64,000 nt of DNA. Origin: Escherichia phage vB_EcoM_G4498. The stretch lies in the sequence record NC_054918.1; one strand, 5' to 3'. Made by a program: the position numbers and the translations under genes. Under the pieces are notes generated by a model that saw only the letters and a list, made by a program, of their open reading frames with translations, did not search any database and was not told the DNA's origin. Positions 5,153-61,672 of this stretch are shown here, in pieces; position 1 is the first letter of the stretch; each line of letters starts with the position of its first letter.

Positions 5153-5566
5153 TTATTCCTTAAAGTGAGCTTTCAACATCTGATACAAGGACCATGCCTG
5201 TTCATCATTTTCAATAGTAACTTTCATTACAGGGAATTTAGATTGATCAGTTATCGGTGCAGATTCTTCCTGCTCTTCAGCTGCCTGGTATGGATTTTCA
5301 ACTTCATTAAAGAATTCAGCTTCATTCGATGAAAGCCAAATAAAATCTTCATCCAAAATATCTTTACCAGAAGATAGTACTAAATTTCCAGCAAATGACA
5401 TAATTTTAATAGGACGCCCAAGAGCATCCACATCTAAAATTTTAAAAGGATGCATACCTAAACGGCGTGCATAGATTCCGTTATCAGTATGGTCTTTAAT
5501 AAAATTTTCTTGAGCTTGTTTATTTTTAAATTGATACCATTTATTAACTTCAAATTTAATAGCCAT
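5153..5566 (-). CDS. goF: GoF mRNA-metabolism modulator (137 aa)
   Basis: Position after 39.x and size are close to T4 GoF. Recognition is from memory only. Confidence 0.6.
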
Positions 5567-5781
5567 TAATAAATTTCCTTCCAGTAAGTTGTACCATCTT
5601 CAGTGATTTCACGAAATACACCGTAAATTGGTTGTTTATCCCCAACCTTTTCATACACATAAACCGAAGTCAAGTGAGTAAACTTAGCAGTGTGTTCCTT
5701 TTGAACTACTACCAAATCTGGATCGAATAACACATCTTCAAATTCGTCATTAGTGCAGTTCTGAACAATTTTACGTTTCAT
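5566..5781 (-). CDS. cef: Cef, modifier of suppressor tRNAs (71 aa)
   Basis: Size and position match T4 cef. It overlaps the goF start by 1 nt. Confidence 0.55.
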
Positions 5782-5853
5782 TACAATTTCCTCGTTAATT
5801 GAACATTGGAGCGATGCGTTTCAGAAGAGTAGCAGCACCTTTGGCAAATTTTC

Positions 5854-5929
5854 CATTTTATTCTCCAAGTTATTTTCTGTATCAGTAGTTGATATTGATA
5901 TAGTACCATAATCAACTACTGATGTATAT
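5854..5929 (-). repeat. promoter/leader cassette copy A (degenerate) with a 13-bp inverted repeat
   Basis: Arms atcagtagttgat (5881-5893) and atcaactactgat (5911-5923) flank TACTAT (5900-5905). GGAGAATAAAATG leads into an 11-codon mini-ORF. Confidence 0.6.
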
Positions 5930-5952
5930 AGTTTTATGAAAAATTTTAAACT

Positions 5953-6444
5953 TTATGCATAGCGAGCTTTGCTGTAGTGTTTAATCCAACTTTCAGGAAT
6001 GACTTTGTATGTTCCTAAAAATACCGCGTTGTATAACTTAACGCCATCTTCTACCCATTGATCAGTAATGTATGCACACATAGCGCGAGTACGGTTAACA
6101 ACACCTTCCTCACCTTCAGTAAATTCAAACTCATAAGGAGCAACGAACTTGATAGCTTGACCGAGTTTCCACTTAAAGTCTACACCTACATGCGAAGTAT
6201 CAATCGTTTCAATTCCTTTAGCGGGAACAGCTTTCAAAAACGCAGGCTCAAGAAATTTCCATCGAACATAACCAAACTGAGGTTTAGACATTCCATCTTT
6301 AGGAATGATACGCACTTTTACTTCAGAATCTTCATCTTTAACACCATGTTTAAGCTGAATGCTTACGACTTCAACCAATTTTCCTGCTGCTTTAGAACGG
6401 GATTTATCAGATACACGAGCAATTTCACCGATATTAATATTCAT
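5953..6444 (-). CDS. motB: MotB-position DNA-binding protein (163 aa)
   Basis: Size and position match T4 motB. An early promoter lies at 6489-6518. Confidence 0.55.
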   Translation of the reverse strand: MNINIGEIARVSDKSRSKAAGKLVEVVSIQLKHGVKDEDSEVKVRIIPKDGMSKPQFGYVRWKFLEPAFLKAVPAKGIETIDTSHVGVDFKWKLGQAIKFVAPYEFEFTEGEEGVVNRTRAMCAYITDQWVEDGVKLYNAVFLGTYKVIPESWIKHYSKARYA

Positions 6445-6488
6445 AATTATCTCTCACTTGTTAAAAAGATTTTATACTCCGCAGGACC

Positions 6489-6518
6489 ATTATACTCTGG
6501 TCCCAAGAGTTTGTAAAC
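6489..6518 (-). promoter_or_regulatory. early promoter
   Basis: GTTTAC-N18-TATAAT upstream of motB. The -10 sits in the loop of a GGACC/GGTCC hairpin. Confidence 0.7.
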
Positions 6519-6520
6519 TA

Positions 6521-7063
6521 TTAATTCAAAATAGCTACCACTGCACTACGAGGTACTACACTAAAATCACCTGCATGAACAACGTTCAGAAGTTCAACAC
6601 CATCTTCAATCCACTGGTCTGTTACCCAACCACAGACCGAAATAAATGGGGTCTTGATAGCTACAGCACGAGTTAGAAGGTCAGTAGGATCGCATTCTTG
6701 GAAGAGGATAAGCTCTGCTTCAAAGACTATAGTTTTAATTACTTCATCATTATCTAAGCGTTGTGCTCGAATCACATAAGCTTTATTCTTATCATGCCAA
6801 TTACTTTTTGAAAAACTTTTAACCACAAACTCGCCTTCACCCAAAACACTGGTCAATGCTTTATAACCCAAACTTAGTTCAGTAGTTTTAATTTCAGTTT
6901 CAACCAGTTTGTAGGTTTTGCCAATTTCGATGGTTCGAGCAGTCATAAAGGTTTCCTTAATTTCTAATGGTTTAACAAGAGTGCCGTACATGCTTGCTAT
7001 ATCCATATCAAATATTTTATCTATAGGATTTGGGGTGTATTCAGGATTATAATTAAATTTCAT
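6521..7063 (-). CDS. hypothetical protein (motB.1 position), C-terminal domain paralogous to MotB
   Basis: CGWVTDQWIEDGVELLNVVHAGDFSVVP aligns with CAYITDQWVEDGVKLYNAVFLGTYKVIP in the preceding gene. Confidence 0.6.
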   Translation of the reverse strand: MKFNYNPEYTPNPIDKIFDMDIASMYGTLVKPLEIKETFMTARTIEIGKTYKLVETEIKTTELSLGYKALTSVLGEGEFVVKSFSKSNWHDKNKAYVIRAQRLDNDEVIKTIVFEAELILFQECDPTDLLTRAVAIKTPFISVCGWVTDQWIEDGVELLNVVHAGDFSVVPRSAVVAILN

Positions 7064-11545: not shown

Positions 11546-12148
11546 TTATAGATTAAATCCTTCAAAATCAAGAGTATAGATAGTGTATGTTGAATACTTT
11601 TTGTACTCATATCTATCTGCAATTCTAAATACACTTCCAGCTGGTATCATTACTTCTTGTTCATCTGAAACTAATTCCATATTACGATAACGATGGCTAT
11701 CTGGAAACTTAAAGTTTGGATTGTATTCTTTACAGCGTAGAGCTTTTATAGCATACTCCTGGAAATTGAATACCATAGGAGCTTTGAATTCAAAAATAAC
11801 TTGTGTGTTATACTCTAAACCGGAAGCAAAATGTAGAGCTATATTTTTATCATATGAAGCTGATACTACTTTATCAAATGTAATAATATCAATTCCTTGA
11901 TTTAATATTTGTTTAGTCTCAGCTGGAACACCTCTCCAAAGAGGTTTATCGTTTGGAACCAAACGAGATTTGATTATTTCATTTAACCAAGTATGGTCAT
12001 CTGGCTTATTAGTAATACAATGAATTAAAAGTTCAATTTCAGATAAATTAAACCCTTCAGAAAGTAATTCTTCACGAATAGAAGCACGCACCGATGCATC
12101 CATTGATTTTATTTTAAAATCTTTTAGTTGCATTACTGAGTATTTCAT
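11546..12148 (-). CDS. modA: ModA ADP-ribosyltransferase, 200 aa
   Basis: R-S-E ART motifs (LWRGV, SASYD, EQEVMIP). Size matches T4 ModA. Confidence 0.85.
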   Translation of the reverse strand: MKYSVMQLKDFKIKSMDASVRASIREELLSEGFNLSEIELLIHCITNKPDDHTWLNEIIKSRLVPNDKPLWRGVPAETKQILNQGIDIITFDKVVSASYDKNIALHFASGLEYNTQVIFEFKAPMVFNFQEYAIKALRCKEYNPNFKFPDSHRYRNMELVSDEQEVMIPAGSVFRIADRYEYKKYSTYTIYTLDFEGFNL

Positions 12149-12768
12149 TCAACTACCTCAATATCATAAACTTTAAATGTTCCAAATGAATCGTGTAATT
12201 TTTCTTTTGAAATAGAAGTTATTTTATACTTTCCAATTGGAATCATCCATTCTTGTTCACGCACAATCATCATTAAGTTATCAGTACGCTCTGAATCTAA
12301 TCCATCAGTATCTTCATACGTGTACTTAAACTCAGTATTAGGAGAAGAAAGTATAATATCGCTGATATGGTCAGAATAATTAAAAGCTTTATTAGTTTTT
12401 AAGCGAAGTATTATTTTAGTAAAATATTCAGCGTAAGAAAAAGAACATGCTGTGAGCAAACTAGTAGTAAATGAATCTACTCTATTCGTTGAAAACACTT
12501 CTCCGACTTGTAAATCTTTAATGAGTTCTTTTGTCGATTTTGATATACCACGATATAGCTGATAAGGCGATTTAGTTAAATGCTTTTTAACGATTTTATT
12601 CAACTGCCGATGAAGAGCTTCATTCTTTTTGGCTTCCATACATTGCCAAAGAACTGACTGCTCAAAGTCAGTAAATTTTTCACAGACCTTTTTATACATA
12701 TCATATTGAAAATCAACGCTTTCAGCTTTTATAGATAACTGTTCAACATCTGCAAGATTAATAATCAT
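12145..12768 (-). CDS. modB: ModB ADP-ribosyltransferase, 207 aa
   Basis: ART motifs (LYRGIS, EQEWMIP). Paralog of modA; size matches T4 ModB. Confidence 0.85.
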   Translation of the reverse strand: MIINLADVEQLSIKAESVDFQYDMYKKVCEKFTDFEQSVLWQCMEAKKNEALHRQLNKIVKKHLTKSPYQLYRGISKSTKELIKDLQVGEVFSTNRVDSFTTSLLTACSFSYAEYFTKIILRLKTNKAFNYSDHISDIILSSPNTEFKYTYEDTDGLDSERTDNLMMIVREQEWMIPIGKYKITSISKEKLHDSFGTFKVYDIEVVE

Positions 12769-56733: not shown

Positions 56734-57120
56734 TTATTCGAGGGAAAGAAGATACTTACTCTGATAAAACATTCCAGTAATATCATCTATCGTGCTTTGG
56801 ATGGCTGGAGGCATTTCTTTATAAATGCTGTTAGATTGGTCTAGTATGCGATCAATCATTTTAATTGTGTCGGTAGGAAGTTTACTGGCATCTGGAATTG
56901 AAGGTGTGTATTTTCTACCAGAATACCCCAAATATTGCTCACCAAATTTATCAATCAAATCTGGCAACTCGGAGAAAATAAAATCGTATGCTTTGTGTCT
57001 AGCATAATTTTTAGTTTCAAAATGTGCAGAATGAAAATAAGCTTGTGCAGCCATTAATAAACCTAAGTATTCATCTGCCTTTGAAGGTTTTCCACTTTGT
57101 GAAAAGTCGCTGAATTTCAT
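56734..57120 (-). CDS. hypothetical protein (rI.-1 position), 128 aa
   Basis: ORF overlapping the rI stop by 4 nt. Confidence 0.65.
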
Positions 57121-57410
57121 TCAGTCTCCAATTTAATGTTCATAATTCTAGCGTATGATTGTGCCATCTCCGCGCCTCGTTCTATACATTCAAAATCAGA
57201 AGAGCACGGGTCATTTTTATAGGTCGTTCTCATAAAACTATAGAACTGTTCAGACGATTCTACGCTTTTATTTTCAAAAAGCATATAAACGTGCCTAATA
57301 CCAGATTCCATAAATTTATCAAAATGAGGATCGACATTCGCTTCAATCGATGGAGATAAAACAAATGACAATCCTAGCATGGCAAAAAGTGCCGTTGCTT
57401 TTAAGGCCAT
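57117..57410 (-). CDS. rI: RI lysis-inhibition antiholin, 97 aa
   Basis: MALKATALFAMLGLSFVLSPSIEANVDPHFDKFMESGIRHVYML... matches T4 RI. Confidence 0.92.
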   Translation of the reverse strand: MALKATALFAMLGLSFVLSPSIEANVDPHFDKFMESGIRHVYMLFENKSVESSEQFYSFMRTTYKNDPCSSDFECIERGAEMAQSYARIMNIKLETE

Positions 57411-57422
57411 AAAGGCCTCCTA

Positions 57423-57635
57423 TCATTTTTGTCCTGTATTTACTTTATGCCGATGCACGGCCTTAACTTTATCAAGGTATTTTTCAAAATTTCGCAATCT
57501 AGTATAGTCTGCCGGAGATTGGTTGAGTGATACTTCTCGACGCAAAGCTGAAATGATATTTCCAACTTCCCTACGAATTTCATCTAATTGAAGCACAGTA
57601 AGATTGCGAAGTTGCTTTTCAGTTAATTGTAGCAT
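57423..57635 (-). CDS. small hypothetical protein (rI.1 position), 70 aa
   Basis: ORF downstream of the late TATAAATA box at 57661-57668. Confidence 0.6.
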
Positions 57636-57660
57636 ATATACCCCTTTAGTTAGATAAACC

Positions 57661-57668
57661 TATTTATA
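57661..57668 (-). promoter_or_regulatory. late promoter TATAAATA for rI.1/rI
   Basis: Exact TATAAATA on the minus strand, 26 nt before the 57635 start. Confidence 0.7.
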
Positions 57669-57677
57669 ACTTTTGCA

Positions 57678-58259
57678 CTAACCGAGCTTTTTAGTTAATT
57701 CATTCCAATGTTTTCTACACAAAGAAACATAAATTTCATCACCAATACAGATTTGATTACCTTCTTTAACTGGTGTTCCATCTTCCATTAATCGAGCTGT
57801 CATAATCGCTTTTTTACCACAATGACAAACTGCCTTTAGTTCAATAAGTTTATCTGCAATCGCTAAAAGTTCTTTAGAACCTTCAAATAATTTTCCAGCG
57901 AAATCAGTCCTTAGCCCATAAGCCATAACAGGAACATTATATGTATCAACAATTCGGCTCAATTGATGCACCTGTTCAGTTTTTAAAAACTGAGCTTCAT
58001 CTACAAATACGCAATGAATATCTTTTTGTGCTTCAGCCCATTTATAGAACTCGAAAATATCCATATCATCTGTAATAATATTCGCTTCCTGCTTAATTCC
58101 AATGCGAGAAACGACTTCACAGACAGAATCGCGAGTATCAATAGCAGGCTTAAGAACTAATACACTCATTCCACGTTCTTTATAATTATGTGCAGCAGTC
58201 AAAAGAGAAGCAGATTTTCCAGCATTCATTGCTGCATAAGTAAAAATTAAACTCGCCAT
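57678..58259 (-). CDS. tk: thymidine kinase, 193 aa
   Basis: P-loop YAAMNAGKS and C-terminal zinc motifs CHCGKKA / CRKH. Matches T4 Tk. Confidence 0.95.
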   Translation of the reverse strand: MASLIFTYAAMNAGKSASLLTAAHNYKERGMSVLVLKPAIDTRDSVCEVVSRIGIKQEANIITDDMDIFEFYKWAEAQKDIHCVFVDEAQFLKTEQVHQLSRIVDTYNVPVMAYGLRTDFAGKLFEGSKELLAIADKLIELKAVCHCGKKAIMTARLMEDGTPVKEGNQICIGDEIYVSLCRKHWNELTKKLG

Positions 58260-58268
58260 ATCACCTTC

Positions 58269-58454
58269 TTAAAGCGTATTCACATAAGCTATTAATTCAT
58301 TTTCTTTCTTATCAAACCGATCAGCAAATTCTTCCTGCTGTTCGGGAGATAGCGGGCCGTATTCATCATAAAAGGTGTTTGCTTCTGTATGCTCATCTAG
58401 AAGTTCATGGATAAGCTCAAACAATTTATCTTTTTGTTCTTTGCTTAGACTCAC
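58269..58454 (-). CDS. small helical acidic protein, 61 aa, GTG start
   Basis: GTGA overlap with the upstream stop. Resembles the 55537-56450 small-protein family. Confidence 0.55.
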   Translation of the reverse strand: MSLSKEQKDKLFELIHELLDEHTEANTFYDEYGPLSPEQQEEFADRFDKKENELIAYVNTL

Positions 58455-58627
58455 AGTATGTCAATCCCCAAAAGTTTTAAAATGACTCGTTTCTGATTCA
58501 TAACCGCTACGATTGAATGACCGTTAGGGTCTTTTTGACCCGATCCAATTATAAATCCTTTTTGTGCAGAAAGTTCAATCAAAACATCAAGTTCACGTAA
58601 TAATTGATATTTTAAATCATCATTCAT
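58451..58627 (-). CDS. small hypothetical protein, 58 aa (not in the ORF track)
   Basis: My own translation: MNDDLKYQLLRELDVLIELSAQKGFIIGSGQKDPNGHSIVAVMNQKRVILKLLGIDIL. ATGA overlap upstream. Confidence 0.5.
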   Translation of the reverse strand: MNDDLKYQLLRELDVLIELSAQKGFIIGSGQKDPNGHSIVAVMNQKRVILKLLGIDIL

Positions 58628-58830
58628 TTTGGTTTACCTTCTTTAACGAAATCAGGATAAGGATAAAATCCCGAATAAAATCCTTCACCTTTATGATTGA
58701 TGCATCCTTTATTAGAACAATAGCACCAATAATCGAAATCACAAGCCATTTCATCATTACATAAAGCAAAAACAACAGGCCATTTACACTTTTCACAATG
58801 GGCATTTTTAAGAATACTAGTTTGGCTCAT
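58624..58830 (-). CDS. Cys-rich small protein, 68 aa
   Basis: Start at MSQTSILKNAHCEKCKW (ATGA overlap). Eight Cys plus His residues suggest a zinc-binding fold. Confidence 0.55.
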   Translation of the reverse strand: MSQTSILKNAHCEKCKWPVVFALCNDEMACDFDYWCYCSNKGCINHKGEGFYSGFYPYPDFVKEGKPK

Positions 58831-59039
58831 AACCATGTAACCTTTAAGCAATATTCTTCTACGTGCTGTTTACGACCTTTCTTATCAATAAAGGTATATT
58901 CAACGAATGTTCCAATGTAGTCTTTATCTACATCATGTGGACTATTAATTGGACATTTAGTACGGCAAATGCGTTCCCATTGACGAATAATTACTGCTTT
59001 ATTCTTTGGGTCATATGGATGTGGATAATGTATATTCAT
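58827..59039 (-). CDS. small hypothetical protein, 70 aa
   Basis: Start at MNIHYPHPYDPKNK (ATGA overlap with the macrodomain gene stop). Confidence 0.55.
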   Translation of the reverse strand: MNIHYPHPYDPKNKAVIIRQWERICRTKCPINSPHDVDKDYIGTFVEYTFIDKKGRKQHVEEYCLKVTWL

Positions 59040-59503
59040 AATAATGGTTCCCAATCAACAATCACAATTTCTAATTTAGAGGAATATGCATCTAAAATCC
59101 CCTCAATAATATCCCAGTTCCCTTTACCTATGCCTGCACCAATCCTAGGCATATAGATTGTAGGTTTAATCAGTTTATTTTCACCAAACTCATTTAATTC
59201 TAACATACAATTCATTAAAGCGGAATACTCAAAATTTGGCCCTGGTTGAAATTGAGTATAAAGGTTGAAGCAATACGCTTTATGAGTCCTAAAGTATTTT
59301 TCATAGACTGAGTAAGAACCGAGTTTAGTTACATCACCCCATTCAGTCTGTAATTTATCAGCTTCCAAAATTTTAGGGAAAGCTTTGGTTAATTGACCCG
59401 CTACGCCTGAACCCATAGTATGAAAACAATTACATCCATGCGCAATATTTTTACCTTCAGCGAAAAGGGCGACAATATCGCCCTTGATATATTTTACAAT
59501 CAT
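59036..59503 (-). CDS. macrodomain protein (TARG1/OARD1/DarG-like ADP-ribose binding or hydrolase fold), 155 aa
   Basis: By-eye match to the TARG1-type macro pattern: IKGDI...AHGCNCFHTMGSGVAGQL...CFNLYTQ...IYMPRIGAGIGKGNW...IVIVD. Confidence 0.65.
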   Translation of the reverse strand: MIVKYIKGDIVALFAEGKNIAHGCNCFHTMGSGVAGQLTKAFPKILEADKLQTEWGDVTKLGSYSVYEKYFRTHKAYCFNLYTQFQPGPNFEYSALMNCMLELNEFGENKLIKPTIYMPRIGAGIGKGNWDIIEGILDAYSSKLEIVIVDWEPLL

Positions 59504-59847
59504 CTAGTACTCAATCCTCGATTATAAGAATCTACCAAACGGTCAACCATTGAATGACAAGCGGCTTTATCTTTCTCCTCCGCAACTGAGCATTCTAAGG
59601 TATTCCACTTTTTAGCATATCGTTTTAATAATGTATCGTTTTTGTATCTGCTTGATTTATCTCTTTCTCCGTCTTTATATGCATATATTAATTTCTGTGC
59701 AAATTCAGCTTGGCATGCTTTATTTTTCCCACAATAATCTGCCGCAGTGCGGTTTACATATTCTCTAATTTCAGTATATGATGTATCTGCTGATGCAGAA
59801 GCAGAAAATGAAATTAATCCTATACATAAAACCAAAATTTTAGTCAT
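59500..59847 (-). CDS. vs: Vs (valyl-tRNA synthetase modifier), 115 aa, with a signal-like N-terminus
   Basis: Size and position match T4 vs. Confidence 0.6.
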   Translation of the reverse strand: MTKILVLCIGLISFSASASADTSYTEIREYVNRTAADYCGKNKACQAEFAQKLIYAYKDGERDKSSRYKNDTLLKRYAKKWNTLECSVAEEKDKAACHSMVDRLVDSYNRGLSTR

Positions 59848-60385
59848 TTACTATTTCCAAAAGTTTATTATTTTTAAGGTAATTAGCCTTTTCTAGGACT
59901 TCAGAAGCATATTTAGAACCTGCTTTAACATTCCATCCCGAATTATAAGAGGATATTGCTTTTCTTATATCGCCCTTATGTATATTTAACCAATAAGAAA
60001 GTTCAATGTACGCCCAGGAAGCTGAATTGGATCGTTTATTCAACATTCTTTTTATTTCAGCATCAGTCATATTATAACCAAGTTCCTTAACTCTCGCTCG
60101 CATAGTAGGCAAATAATTTTGGAACATTCCGTAGGCGTGATGCTTTGGTTTAGATTTTAAATTAACTCCGCCAGAGCTTTCTTGCCATAAAATGGCTGCC
60201 ATTATATGACCTAATCCGCTCTTGTGGATATTTTTGTGTGTTTTATATTTTCCATCCTTAGAAAATTGTTCCCCGAATTGATACGCGTAACGCATGTTAT
60301 CGAGTTGGACATTACTGAAAGTATGCTCGGAGCTATGTGCCATCATTGAAATGGCCAATAGACCAGCGAGTAGTGCTTTTCTCAT
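59840..60385 (-). CDS. secreted lytic-transglycosylase-like protein (vs.1 position), 181 aa
   Basis: Signal peptide plus the SLT-like motif AILWQESSGG...YGMFQ. Confidence 0.65.
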   Translation of the reverse strand: MRKALLAGLLAISMMAHSSEHTFSNVQLDNMRYAYQFGEQFSKDGKYKTHKNIHKSGLGHIMAAILWQESSGGVNLKSKPKHHAYGMFQNYLPTMRARVKELGYNMTDAEIKRMLNKRSNSASWAYIELSYWLNIHKGDIRKAISSYNSGWNVKAGSKYASEVLEKANYLKNNKLLEIVND

Positions 60386-60392
60386 GCTTACC

Positions 60393-60854
60393 TCATTGAG
60401 TTTTAATTACTGCTTTAGAAGCCTTTCCTGGTAAACGACGACTGTTAATAATTGCCATCCTACATTGAAGCGACGGGTCTTTGAACTTCTCATTAGGTTT
60501 ACAAACTGTAAATCCGAGCCAAAGATTTCCATCTGTGATTTCTAAACGTCCAGGACGATATTCAACCCCATCAATAAAATCCTCGTCAATGTCAGGACGC
60601 GGAGGCATACTTAGGAATTCATTAACTTCTAAAACATGGTCTTTTATTTTATGGAATAATTCAAAAACGTATGTCTCATCAATCTCCCGTTGAATTGCGC
60701 GATCAAGAAGATGCTGAGAATATTTTAGATGAAACGATGAGACTCCTGCTGCTTTTGATGCCTCACGAATCTCATTGTTAATTTGACGAAACTCCGACTC
60801 AAAGTGACGACGAAGCTTATTTCGACGGATAAAAACTTCTGTATTGATAGTCAT
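60393..60854 (-). CDS. regB: RegB sequence-specific endoribonuclease, 153 aa
   Basis: MTINTEVFIRRNKLRRHFESEFRQINNEIREASKAAGVSSFHLKY... matches T4 RegB. Confidence 0.93.
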   Translation of the reverse strand: MTINTEVFIRRNKLRRHFESEFRQINNEIREASKAAGVSSFHLKYSQHLLDRAIQREIDETYVFELFHKIKDHVLEVNEFLSMPPRPDIDEDFIDGVEYRPGRLEITDGNLWLGFTVCKPNEKFKDPSLQCRMAIINSRRLPGKASKAVIKTQ

Positions 60855-60881
60855 GTTGTTCTCCTCTTAACTGATAGAAAA

Positions 60882-60911
60882 ATTATACCACAGTCAAGAG
60901 GAAAAGTAAAC
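60882..60911 (-). promoter_or_regulatory. early promoter
   Basis: GTTTAC-N18-TATAAT upstream of regB. Confidence 0.7.
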
Positions 60912-60913
60912 AG

Positions 60914-61192
60914 TTATTCTTTAAATCTAATCAATTTATTCATAGACTTTGAAACTTCTGCACGAACCTCATGTAGATTTTTGAGCTGTTCAAGACGCTG
61001 CGTATAGTAAGCAATTTCATCTTCTTCGAGACAGTCCTGTGAATCTTCTTTAAGATAACGTGCATAGTCCTGAAAAGCGTTACGAACTACTTCCTGGAAA
61101 TCATCAAGACTTTGAATTTTCTTAGGAGCAGCAGATACACGACGAGGGGCAGTATAATACTCATAACCAAACCCTGCGCTTAATTGAGCCAT
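60914..61192 (-). CDS. hypothetical protein (vs.3 position), 92 aa
   Basis: Start at [13 protein letters not shown] (TAATG overlap with the vs.4 stop). Confidence 0.55.
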
Positions 61193-61458
61193 TAGTATTT
61201 TTCCTCTGGTTGGAACACTGCACGACAAGCCCACATACTGGCTTCTTTGAGTTTCGTTTTAGCAATAGTTAACTGATCGAGGCTTTCAGCATAATTCTTC
61301 GCGAATTCACAGTCTTCACAATTATCTAGTGCTTCCCAGAATTCATCGTATAAAGCGTCAAAGATAAGTCCTAAACGAACTTCAGCGTCTTTGATTGCAT
61401 TCACTTTACCGATTTTCTCTTCAGTATGTGGCTTATAACCCTTAATATCTTCAATCAT
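61192..61458 (-). CDS. acb2: Vs.4 / Acb2-family cyclic-oligonucleotide sponge (anti-CBASS), 88 aa
   Basis: Start at [25 protein letters not shown]-terminal ...[16 protein letters not shown] is the family hallmark as I recall it. Position matches T4 vs.4. Confidence 0.7.
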
Positions 61459-61672
61459 ATTTGACTTCCTCACCAGTACATAAATCATATTCAACTAAAC
61501 GAATGGGTTCATGAATGCCATATCCCTGAACAGAAATTTCTGTCGTAGGATAAATTCCATCAATATCACCCATATTCCACGCTTCATTAAATTGCTGTTC
61601 GCCTGAATTACTAAACCACTCGGCGAAAGCATTTAGCACATCTTCAGAACCTTCAATAATTATCTTTGCCAT
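61451..61672 (-). CDS. small acidic hypothetical protein (vs.5 position), 73 aa
   Basis: Intact ORF, overlapped at both ends. Confidence 0.6.
   Translation of the reverse strand: MAKIIIEGSEDVLNAFAEWFSNSGEQQFNEAWNMGDIDGIYPTTEISVQGYGIHEPIRLVEYDLCTGEEVKYD

What the first reader, a model, noticed from the sequence alone, without database searches (positions are those of the whole stretch)
59036..59503. TARG1/DarG-like macrodomain gene embedded in the tk-vs operon
The 155-aa product reads like a TARG1/OARD1-type macrodomain. It has N-terminal IKGDI, then AHGCNCFHTMGSGVAGQL (glycine-rich phosphate loop), then CFNLYTQ, then IYMPRIGAGIGKGNW (second glycine loop). By-eye alignment to human TARG1 puts Gln and Gly/Lys where I recall the TARG1 catalytic Lys84 and Asp125 (numbering from memory), so it may bind ADP-ribose or use a different mechanism. 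DarG antitoxins and TARG1 remove ADP-ribose from DNA thymidine, and the same window encodes two ADP-ribosyltransferases (modA, modB). A phage macrodomain could therefore act as a DarG mimic against DarT-type or other ART-based defences. Alternatively it could edit the phage's own ADP-ribosylation or RNAylation marks. It is translationally chained (ATGA overlaps) to four tiny ORFs and vs. I do not know of a described function for this gene.
Basis: partly seen in the sequence, partly recalled or inferred. Interest (0 to 1): 0.75.

Follow-up and report, generated by a model that had tools for sequence, protein, structure and literature searches.

The report
Phage T4 tk.4/adfM anti-DarT macrodomain

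Summary

Gln84 sits where TARG1 has Lys84 and DarG has Lys80, and Gly126 sits where TARG1 has Asp125.

The main hypothesis, a DarG mimic against DarT, is already published. The HIDEN-SEQ preprint (bioRxiv 10.1101/2025.11.20.689424) found tk.4 as the only T4 gene needed on a DarTG2 host. A clean knockout sensitised T4, and the gene was renamed adfM. No biochemistry on the T4 protein exists in the papers I could search.

What I add:
- Gln84 is invariant in 85 phage and 82 bacterial relatives.
- This matches Streptomyces SCO6735, a lysine-less macrodomain that cleaves thymidine-linked ADP-ribose and needs its Gln85.
- T4 AdfM is therefore a different subfamily from the Lys-type PhiKZ AdfM and from DarG.
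- Its bacterial relatives are single-domain. No DarT was detected beside them, in a low-sensitivity search.

Verdict: already known, low-to-moderate interest.

The parts
59036..59503 (-). tk.4 / adfM coding sequence, 155 aa, single macrodomain
59390..59443 (-). Residues 21-38: loop 1, motif AHGCNC...MGSGVAGQ. Contains His22 (59438-59440) and the macrodomain Asn25 (59429-59431).
   Evidence: N25 is invariant and H22 nearly invariant in 85 relatives. They align with SCO6735 H24/N27 and with TaqDarG N22 and PhiKZ N23. N27S in SCO6735 and N23A in PhiKZ AdfM reduce activity.
59252..59254 (-). Codon CAA for Gln84, at the position of TARG1 Lys84, DarG Lys80 and SCO6735 Gln85
   Evidence: hhalign. Invariant in 85 phage-type relatives and in 82/82 bacterial relatives. 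SCO6735 Q85A/E is inactive.
59114..59149 (-). Residues 119-130, PRIGAGIGKGNW: glycine-rich phosphate-binding loop. G126 aligns with TARG1 Asp125. K127 is not conserved.
   Evidence: K127 is Gly in 67/82 bacterial relatives and in most phage relatives. The family consensus GAGIAGGDW resembles SCO6735/BT1257 GCGLAGGxW.
59500..59847 (-). vs (valyl-tRNA synthetase modifier). Its TGA stop overlaps the tk.4 ATG (ATGA).
   Evidence: PHROG 1256, 1.7e-39; T4 annotation.
59840..60385 (-). vs.1 (lytic-transglycosylase-like), upstream in the same chain, 8-nt overlap with vs
60393..60854 (-). regB endoribonuclease gene, first gene of the chain
60882..60910 (-). Sigma-70-type promoter-like site (TTTACT-17-TATAAT with TG) upstream of regB. 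This is the candidate early promoter for the regB-vs.1-vs-tk.4 chain (inferred).
   Evidence: 10/12 match. The number of sites in the region is not above chance, so this is only a candidate. No MotA-box middle promoter lies on the minus strand nearby.
58827..59039 (-). tk.3, 70 aa. Its ATG overlaps the tk.4 stop (ATGA).
   Evidence: PHROG 2008, 1e-41; T4 annotation.
58624..58830 (-). Small Cys-rich ORF, 68 aa, ATGA overlap with tk.3. Lies in the 58260-58826 stretch that lacks close DNA similarity to T4.
   Evidence: PHROG 2306.
58451..58627 (-). Small ORF, 58 aa, ATGA overlap
   Evidence: PHROG 3452.
58269..58454 (-). Small ORF, 61 aa, GTG start, GTGA overlap. The DNA is 69% identical to the T4 tk.2 region.
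   Evidence: PHROG 653.
57678..58259 (-). tk, thymidine kinase, last gene of the chain, with its own Shine-Dalgarno sequence

Best explanation
This is the ortholog of phage T4 tk.4, recently renamed adfM (anti-DarT factor, macrodomain). It is probably made early in infection as part of the translationally coupled regB-vs.1-vs-tk.4-tk.3...tk gene chain. When the host's DarT2 toxin attaches ADP-ribose to thymidines in single-stranded phage DNA, which blocks replication, the 155-aa macrodomain most likely binds the ADP-ribose and hydrolyses the thymidine-ribose bond, restoring the DNA. The catalytic lysine of DarG and TARG1 is absent, so it probably works like Streptomyces SCO6735. In that enzyme an invariant glutamine (here Gln84), held by the conserved Asn (Asn25), positions the distal ribose and a bound water starts the cleavage. 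Shown here: gene identity, fold, class and active-site make-up. Shown in the literature: loss of tk.4 makes T4 sensitive to DarTG2. Inferred: the enzymatic step, the Gln-based mechanism and early expression.
Against: I found no biochemical assay or catalytic mutant of T4 Tk.4; the preprint itself says hydrolysis 'seems likely'. The genetic evidence is a preprint. SCO6735's DNA-binding lysines K34 and K89 are not conserved (S32 here, and a different loop after Gln). Sequence similarity to SCO6735, DarG and TARG1 is about equally remote (hhalign E 2e-15, 1e-12 and 2e-14), and Foldseek ranks SCO6735 itself only 36th. SCO6735 Q85A also blocks DarT by direct interaction, so protection without catalysis is possible. 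T4 DNA carries modified cytosines (general knowledge), so how DarT2 recognises its TNTC motif there is unclear.
Confidence: 0.8

Rival explanations
1. Tk.4 protects mainly without catalysis. It binds and inhibits DarT2 directly, or shields ADP-ribosylated DNA as a reader, and does not hydrolyse the mark.
For: The catalytic Lys of DarG/TARG1 is missing. Inactive SCO6735 Q85A inhibits DarT in vitro more strongly than DarG K80A or TARG1 K84A. ALC1's macrodomain, also Gln-bearing in the alignment, is known from general knowledge as a binder and not an enzyme.
Against: Q84, N25, H22 and both glycine loops are invariant across distant phage and bacterial relatives that face different or no DarT partners. 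That pattern fits an enzyme active site better than a toxin-specific interface. Tk.4 lacks the DarG C-terminal DarT-binding domain: it is 155 aa and scores 30 bits against the DarG equivalog cut-off of 250. SCO6735 with the same residues is a fast hydrolase.
Confidence: 0.1
2. Tk.4 is an ADP-ribose-1''-phosphate phosphatase, or another small-metabolite ADP-ribose-processing enzyme, as the legacy 'phosphatase / A1pp motif / Poa1p-like' annotation says. On this view the DarTG2 phenotype would be indirect.
Against: The only phenotype found is specific to a DNA-thymidine ADP-ribosyltransferase defence. The annotation is an inherited domain name, not an assay. Poa1p has Ser, not the family-invariant Gln, at position 84. 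A metabolite phosphatase gives no obvious route to DarT2 resistance.
Confidence: 0.05
3. Tk.4 edits the phage's own ADP-ribosylation or RNAylation marks laid down by Alt, ModA and ModB on host proteins. The DarT2 effect would be a side activity.
For: modA and modB are in the same window. TARG1-class enzymes, including SCO6735, also remove protein-linked ADP-ribose.
Against: tk.4 was dispensable on plain E. coli K-12 and became important only with DarTG2. Alt and ModA/ModB are arginine-specific transferases, and macrodomains are not known to cleave arginine-ADP-ribose (general knowledge of these families, not tested here). tk.4 is about 47 kb from modA/modB and is not linked to them.
Confidence: 0.05

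Closest known systems
Phage T4 Tk.4 = AdfM (anti-DarT factor macrodomain), HIDEN-SEQ preprint, bioRxiv 10.1101/2025.11.20.689424
   Same: The same gene: 154/155 residues identical, and the same position between vs and tk.3. Its function against DarTG2 is shown by transposon sequencing and a clean knockout.
   Different: One substitution (A139T). In this phage the stretch between tk.3 and tk carries three small ORFs where T4 has tk.1 and tk.2, giving four small ORFs in all between tk.4 and tk against three in T4.
SCO6735 (Streptomyces coelicolor, PDB 5e3b) and BT1257 (Bacteroides thetaiotaomicron, PDB 2fg1/2afc)
   Different: Only 23-29% identity. SCO6735's DNA-binding K34 and K89 and its longer mobile loop are not conserved. 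SCO6735 is a bacterial, DNA-damage-induced protein and not a phage counter-defence.
DarG (DarG2) antitoxin macrodomain (T. aquaticus 5m31/5m3e, M. tuberculosis 5m3i)
   Different: Gln84 replaces catalytic Lys80. There is no C-terminal DarT-binding domain and no adjacent darT. The score is far below the DarG family cut-off (30 against 250 bits).
PhiKZ gp104 AdfM (chimallivirus DarG2-like antitoxin; Cell Rep 2026, PMC13309987)
   Same: A phage-encoded single macrodomain that counters DarTG2. Removal of DarT2 ADP-ribose from DNA is shown in vitro. It carries the same name.
   Different: A different subfamily. PhiKZ AdfM is a clear DarG-type protein with the PTK lysine (9e-25 to MtbDarG). Tk.4 aligns with it over only 23 residues by BLASTP (E 0.005), and it is the weakest of the four hhalign comparisons. 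This points to independent acquisition.
Human TARG1/OARD1
   Different: The Lys84/Asp125 dyad is replaced by Gln84/Gly126.
T4 AdfN (gene 30.3, NADAR) against DarTG1
   Same: A phage-borne, stand-alone hydrolase proposed to be co-opted from the antitoxin side of DarTG. [quoted passage not shown]
   Different: An unrelated fold, specific for guanosine-linked marks, and with no effect on DarTG2.

Membership tests
Macrodomain superfamily (Pfam PF01661) | Profile match above the curated threshold | tested here: met
   27.7 bits against a cut-off of 22, E 2.8e-6, covering profile positions 2-113 of 118.
Macrodomain superfamily (Pfam PF01661) | Three-layer alpha/beta/alpha macro fold matching solved macrodomains | tested here: met
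Macrodomain superfamily (Pfam PF01661) | Binds ADP-ribose | not testable with these tools
   Both glycine-rich loops and the conserved Asn are present, but binding needs an experiment.
ALC1-like / TARG1-like macrodomain class | Closest structural and sequence relatives are TARG1, Poa1p, DarG, SCO6735/BT1257 and not MacroD, viral or PARG types | tested here: met
TARG1/OARD1 orthologs | Catalytic Lys84-Asp125 dyad | tested here: not met
   Q84 and G126 occupy these columns. The TARG1 numbering was verified.
DarG (DarG2) antitoxin | Catalytic Lys80 in the macrodomain | tested here: not met
   Q84 aligns with K80.
DarG (DarG2) antitoxin | Second, C-terminal DarT-binding domain (protein of about 330-400 aa) | tested here: not met
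   The protein is 155 aa and matches only positions 2-147 of the 338-position NCBIfam DarG model, scoring 30 bits against a cut-off of 250.
DarG (DarG2) antitoxin | Encoded in an operon with darT | tested here: not met
   Its neighbours are vs and tk.3. No DarT2-like ORF was found beside 80 bacterial relatives, though that search had low sensitivity.
DarG (DarG2) antitoxin | Neutralises DarT2 | not testable with these tools
   Reported genetically for the T4 ortholog. Not tested here.
SCO6735-type (Gln-type) DNA ADP-ribosyl hydrolases | Gln at the Lys84/Lys80 position, held by the loop-1 Asn | tested here: met
   Q84 aligns with Q85 and N25 with N27; both are invariant in the family.
SCO6735-type (Gln-type) DNA ADP-ribosyl hydrolases | DNA-positioning lysines K34 and K89 and the extended mobile loop | tested here: not met
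   S32 lies at the K34 column. The loop after Q84 is shorter and has no aligned Lys.
SCO6735-type (Gln-type) DNA ADP-ribosyl hydrolases | Hydrolyses thymidine-linked ADP-ribose on ssDNA | not testable with these tools
   Needs an enzyme assay.
Poa1p-type ADP-ribose-1''-phosphate phosphatase | Residues probed in the solved mutants (His23, Ser30) | tested here: inconclusive
   H22 matches His23. Thr29 lies at the Ser30 column, and is Thr in 56 of 82 bacterial relatives. I could not find the Poa1p structure paper in the library.
AdfM as defined on T4 (tk.4) | Orthology to T4 tk.4: near-identity and synteny | tested here: met
   154/155 identical, located between vs and tk.3.
AdfM as defined on PhiKZ gp104 | DarG2-type sequence with the PTK lysine | tested here: not met
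   BLASTP aligns 23 aa, E 0.005. Gln against Lys.

The most novel reading that the evidence does not exclude
T4 AdfM is not a stripped-down DarG. It belongs to a separate, very widespread clade of stand-alone Gln-type macrodomains with the signature HGCNC...NxYTQ...IGAGIAGGDW. The clade is found in about 5.6% of sequenced phage records and in many bacterial chromosomes. On this reading its members repair thymidine-linked ADP-ribose on DNA by a lysine-independent, water-mediated mechanism. Phages would then have acquired anti-DarT2 macrodomains at least twice (Gln-type in T4-like phages, Lys-type in PhiKZ-like phages), and some bacteria would pair the Gln-type enzyme with a NADAR to cover both thymidine and guanosine marks, as T4 does with adfM and adfN.
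Probability: 0.55. Interest if true: 0.45.

Novelty: already known. Interest (0 to 1): 0.25.

Why it matters
The gene shows how T-even phages stack enzymatic erasers against DNA ADP-ribosylation defences: AdfN for guanosine marks and AdfM for thymidine marks. That story is already in the literature.

What is still open, and directly testable, is the chemistry. The T4 enzyme lacks the lysine that defines DarG and TARG1 catalysis. It carries instead the invariant glutamine that was previously studied only in Streptomyces SCO6735.

If confirmed, this would extend the lysine-independent mechanism to a large phage and bacterial clade. It would also show that the two proteins now both called AdfM arose independently. 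The widespread 'phosphatase' label on this gene in phage genome records would then need correcting.

Tried and rejected
1. Lys127 in GIGKGNW as a relocated catalytic lysine. Rejected: it is Gly in the 85%-identical relative P0004, in most phage relatives and in 67/82 bacterial relatives.

2. Bacterial 'MAG' homologs as evidence for a cellular origin. P0073 and P0113 turned out to lie on T4-like phage contigs, with Rnl1, a Dda-like helicase, PNKP and dCMP deaminase as neighbours.

3. A DarT partner next to bacterial relatives. phmmer with P. aeruginosa 505 DarT2 against all ORFs of 70 aa or more in the fetched loci found nothing at E up to 1. A single-sequence search has low sensitivity. Neighbour clustering showed no universal partner.

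4. A middle (MotA-box) promoter for tk.4. None lies on the minus strand nearby. The sigma-70 scan of the region is at chance level overall.

5. Rfam scan of 57000-61500: no hit.

6. The Poa1p structure paper, sought for its catalytic residues, is not in the searchable library. Only the PDB titles were used.

7. JACS 2026 (PMC12879935), the Iyer/Aravind virus survey (PMC9503650) and the CmdTAC paper do not mention Tk.4.

8. I could not measure active-site distances in the model, because the coordinates are not exposed.

Full report
**What is there**

The window is a T4-type (Tequatrovirus) phage genome segment. The stretch 57600-60900 is 97.5-99.5% identical to many Escherichia and Shigella T4-like phages, whose records annotate thymidine kinase, vs, regB and a 'macro domain protein / phosphatase / Poa1p-like / tk.4' gene.

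The ORF at 59036-59503 on the minus strand starts with ATG and encodes 155 aa. It differs from T4 Tk.4 (NP_049723) at one residue, A139T. It is 100% identical to the protein of Escherichia phage 121/2022-2B.

**The gene chain**

On the minus strand the order is regB, vs.1, vs, tk.4, tk.3, three further small ORFs, then tk.
- The vs stop and the tk.4 start share ATGA.
- The tk.4 stop and the tk.3 start share ATGA.
- Two more ATGA junctions and one GTGA junction follow.
- tk then has its own Shine-Dalgarno sequence.

All four small ORFs match PHROG families of unknown function, so they are conserved phage genes. T4 itself has three small genes here. The interval 58260-58826 is not closely related to T4.

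A sigma-70-type promoter-like site lies upstream of regB (60910..60882). No MotA-box middle promoter lies on this strand nearby. Early expression from upstream is therefore an inference. There is no Rfam match in 57000-61500. modA and modB are in the window at 11546-12768.

**It is a macrodomain of the TARG1/DarG/Poa1p/SCO6735 class**

- Pfam Macro is above its gathering score.
- PADLOC DarG scores 1.2e-9.
- The NCBIfam DarG equivalog gives 30 bits, far below its 250-bit cut-off.
- PDB sequence hits are BT1257 (1.3e-9), Poa1p (2.5e-6), T. aquaticus DarG, SCO6735 and TARG1 (3-6e-4).
- An AlphaFold2 model built on 85 relatives has pLDDT 95 and pTM 0.91.
- Foldseek puts TARG1, Poa1p, BT1257 and DarG on top.

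**The active site**

I verified my recalled TARG1 sequence against the PDB and its numbering. I rebuilt the T. aquaticus DarG, BT1257 and SCO6735 macrodomain sequences from printed alignments.

Profile alignments of the Tk.4 family place Gln84 on TARG1 Lys84 and Gly126 on Asp125. They place Gln84 on DarG Lys80 and on SCO6735 Gln85, with HGCN matching HVCN.

Gln84, Asn25, Tyr82 and Asp49 are invariant in 85 mostly phage relatives. They are also invariant in 82 relatives recovered from the bacterial-genome scan. None of these four residues, nor Asn80 (82/82 in the bacterial set, nearly invariant in the phage set), was part of the search patterns. Lys127 is not conserved, so it is not a substitute catalytic lysine.

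**What is already known**

The HIDEN-SEQ preprint of November 2025 reports three things:
- tk.4 was the single significant T4 gene depleted on a DarTG2 host.
- A clean knockout sensitised T4 to DarTG2.
- The protein resembles M. tuberculosis DarG.

It named the gene adfM and stated that enzymatic removal of ADP-ribose 'seems likely'. It contains no enzyme assay and no catalytic mutant.

Earlier work had shown that T4 lacking adfA and adfN (gene 30.3) stays DarTG2-resistant, and had predicted a further factor. A Cell Reports 2026 paper independently named PhiKZ gp104 AdfM. It showed in vitro removal of DarT2 marks and reduced activity in N23A.

**What the sequence adds**

SCO6735 lacks the TARG1 and DarG catalytic residues. 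Its Gln85 to Ala or Glu mutants are dead and N27S is nearly dead. It cleaves thymidine-linked ADP-ribose on DNA efficiently and protects Streptomyces from DarT. A water-initiated mechanism has been proposed for it. BT1257, the best PDB match of Tk.4, is a close homolog of SCO6735 (4e-51). Tk.4 shares the His/Asn/Gln set and the G-x-G-[IL]-[AG]-x-G-x-W loop. It does not share SCO6735's lysines K34 and K89 or its longer loop.

PhiKZ AdfM, by contrast, is a plain DarG-type protein with the PTK lysine (9e-25 to MtbDarG). It aligns with Tk.4 over only 23 residues by BLASTP. The two proteins called AdfM are therefore different subfamilies and were probably acquired independently.

**Distribution**

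tblastn finds relatives in 2845 of 50,697 phage records. These include T4-like, rV5-like and roughly 86-kb Escherichia phages, roughly 157-kb Salmonella/Escherichia phages, and Pseudomonas, Vibrio, Acinetobacter and other phages.

A scan of bacterial genomes found at least 527 relatives. In the best 80 loci the gene is a single-domain ORF of about 147-172 aa. No DarT2-like neighbour was detectable, though that search had low sensitivity, and there is no universal partner.

In two Ruegeria genomes and one Bacteroidales MAG the gene directly follows a NADAR gene. This mirrors T4's unlinked adfN plus adfM pair. Five Rhodobacterales loci have an overlapping endonuclease/exonuclease/phosphatase-family gene downstream.

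**Rivals**

- A non-catalytic DarT2 inhibitor or reader is possible, because SCO6735 Q85A inhibits DarT. Invariance of the active-site residues across hosts argues for catalysis.
- The legacy 'phosphatase' label rests on a domain name and on similarity to Poa1p. It does not explain the DarTG2 phenotype.
- Editing of ModA/ModB marks is unsupported. The gene is dispensable without DarTG2, and those transferases are arginine-specific (general knowledge, not tested here).
- Tk.4 evidently does not neutralise the mRNA ADP-ribosyltransferase CmdT, since CmdTAC defends robustly against T-even phages.

**Verdict**

The residual interest lies in the lysine-less, Gln-type active site and in the independent origin relative to PhiKZ AdfM and DarG. 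Both are testable with simple enzyme assays and point mutants.

Noticed in passing
window 58260-58826 (minus strand ORFs 58624-58830, 58451-58627, 58269-58454): The stretch between tk and tk.3 is not closely related to T4. Only 58278-58453 shows 69% nucleotide identity, to T4 tk.2. The stretch holds three small overlapping ORFs (one Cys-rich, 68 aa) where T4 has tk.1 and tk.2. All three match PHROGs of unknown function. It looks like a swapped cassette in a hyperplastic region.
   Followed up: partly
L021 4463-4993, L047 4481-5020, L069 4520-5014 (bacterial loci): In two Ruegeria genomes and a Bacteroidales MAG, a NADAR-domain gene (Pfam 1.5e-37) lies immediately upstream of the Tk.4-like macrodomain gene; in L047 and L069 the two overlap. 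This is a linked pair equivalent to T4's separate adfN and adfM, and may be a two-enzyme DNA ADP-ribose repair module.
   Followed up: partly
L023, L028, L044, L068, L075 (about 5420-6680 in each locus): In five Rhodobacterales-type loci an endonuclease/exonuclease/phosphatase-family gene (Pfam PF03372) directly follows the macrodomain gene, with a 4-nt overlap in three of them. This hints at a DNA-repair context. Three Verrucomicrobia loci have a DUF72 gene downstream.
   Followed up: no
L002/L005 and L003/L008: Contigs deposited as Bacilli and Culicoidibacterales MAGs carry T4-like phage genes around the macrodomain gene: Rnl1, a Dda-like helicase, PNKP, dCMP deaminase and spanin. They are phage contigs binned into bacterial MAGs.
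   Followed up: yes
window 59500-59847 (vs): The gene just upstream, vs, was the most strongly depleted T4 gene in minimal medium compared with LB in the same HIDEN-SEQ preprint. Its product has an N-terminal signal-peptide-like hydrophobic stretch, which is odd for a tRNA-synthetase modifier.
   Followed up: no
window 11546-12768: modA (98.5% identical to T4) and modB (96.2%) are adjacent and overlap by 4 nt. The HIDEN-SEQ preprint lists a ModA ortholog of phage Bas37 in its figure for a Mokosh-expressing host.
   Followed up: no
window, whole: The MotA-box pattern TGCTTNA-N11-13-TANNNT occurs 16 times, against 4.8 expected by chance. Most occurrences are on the minus strand between 16 and 44 kb, consistent with T4 middle promoters. 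None lies near tk.4 on the coding strand.
   Followed up: no
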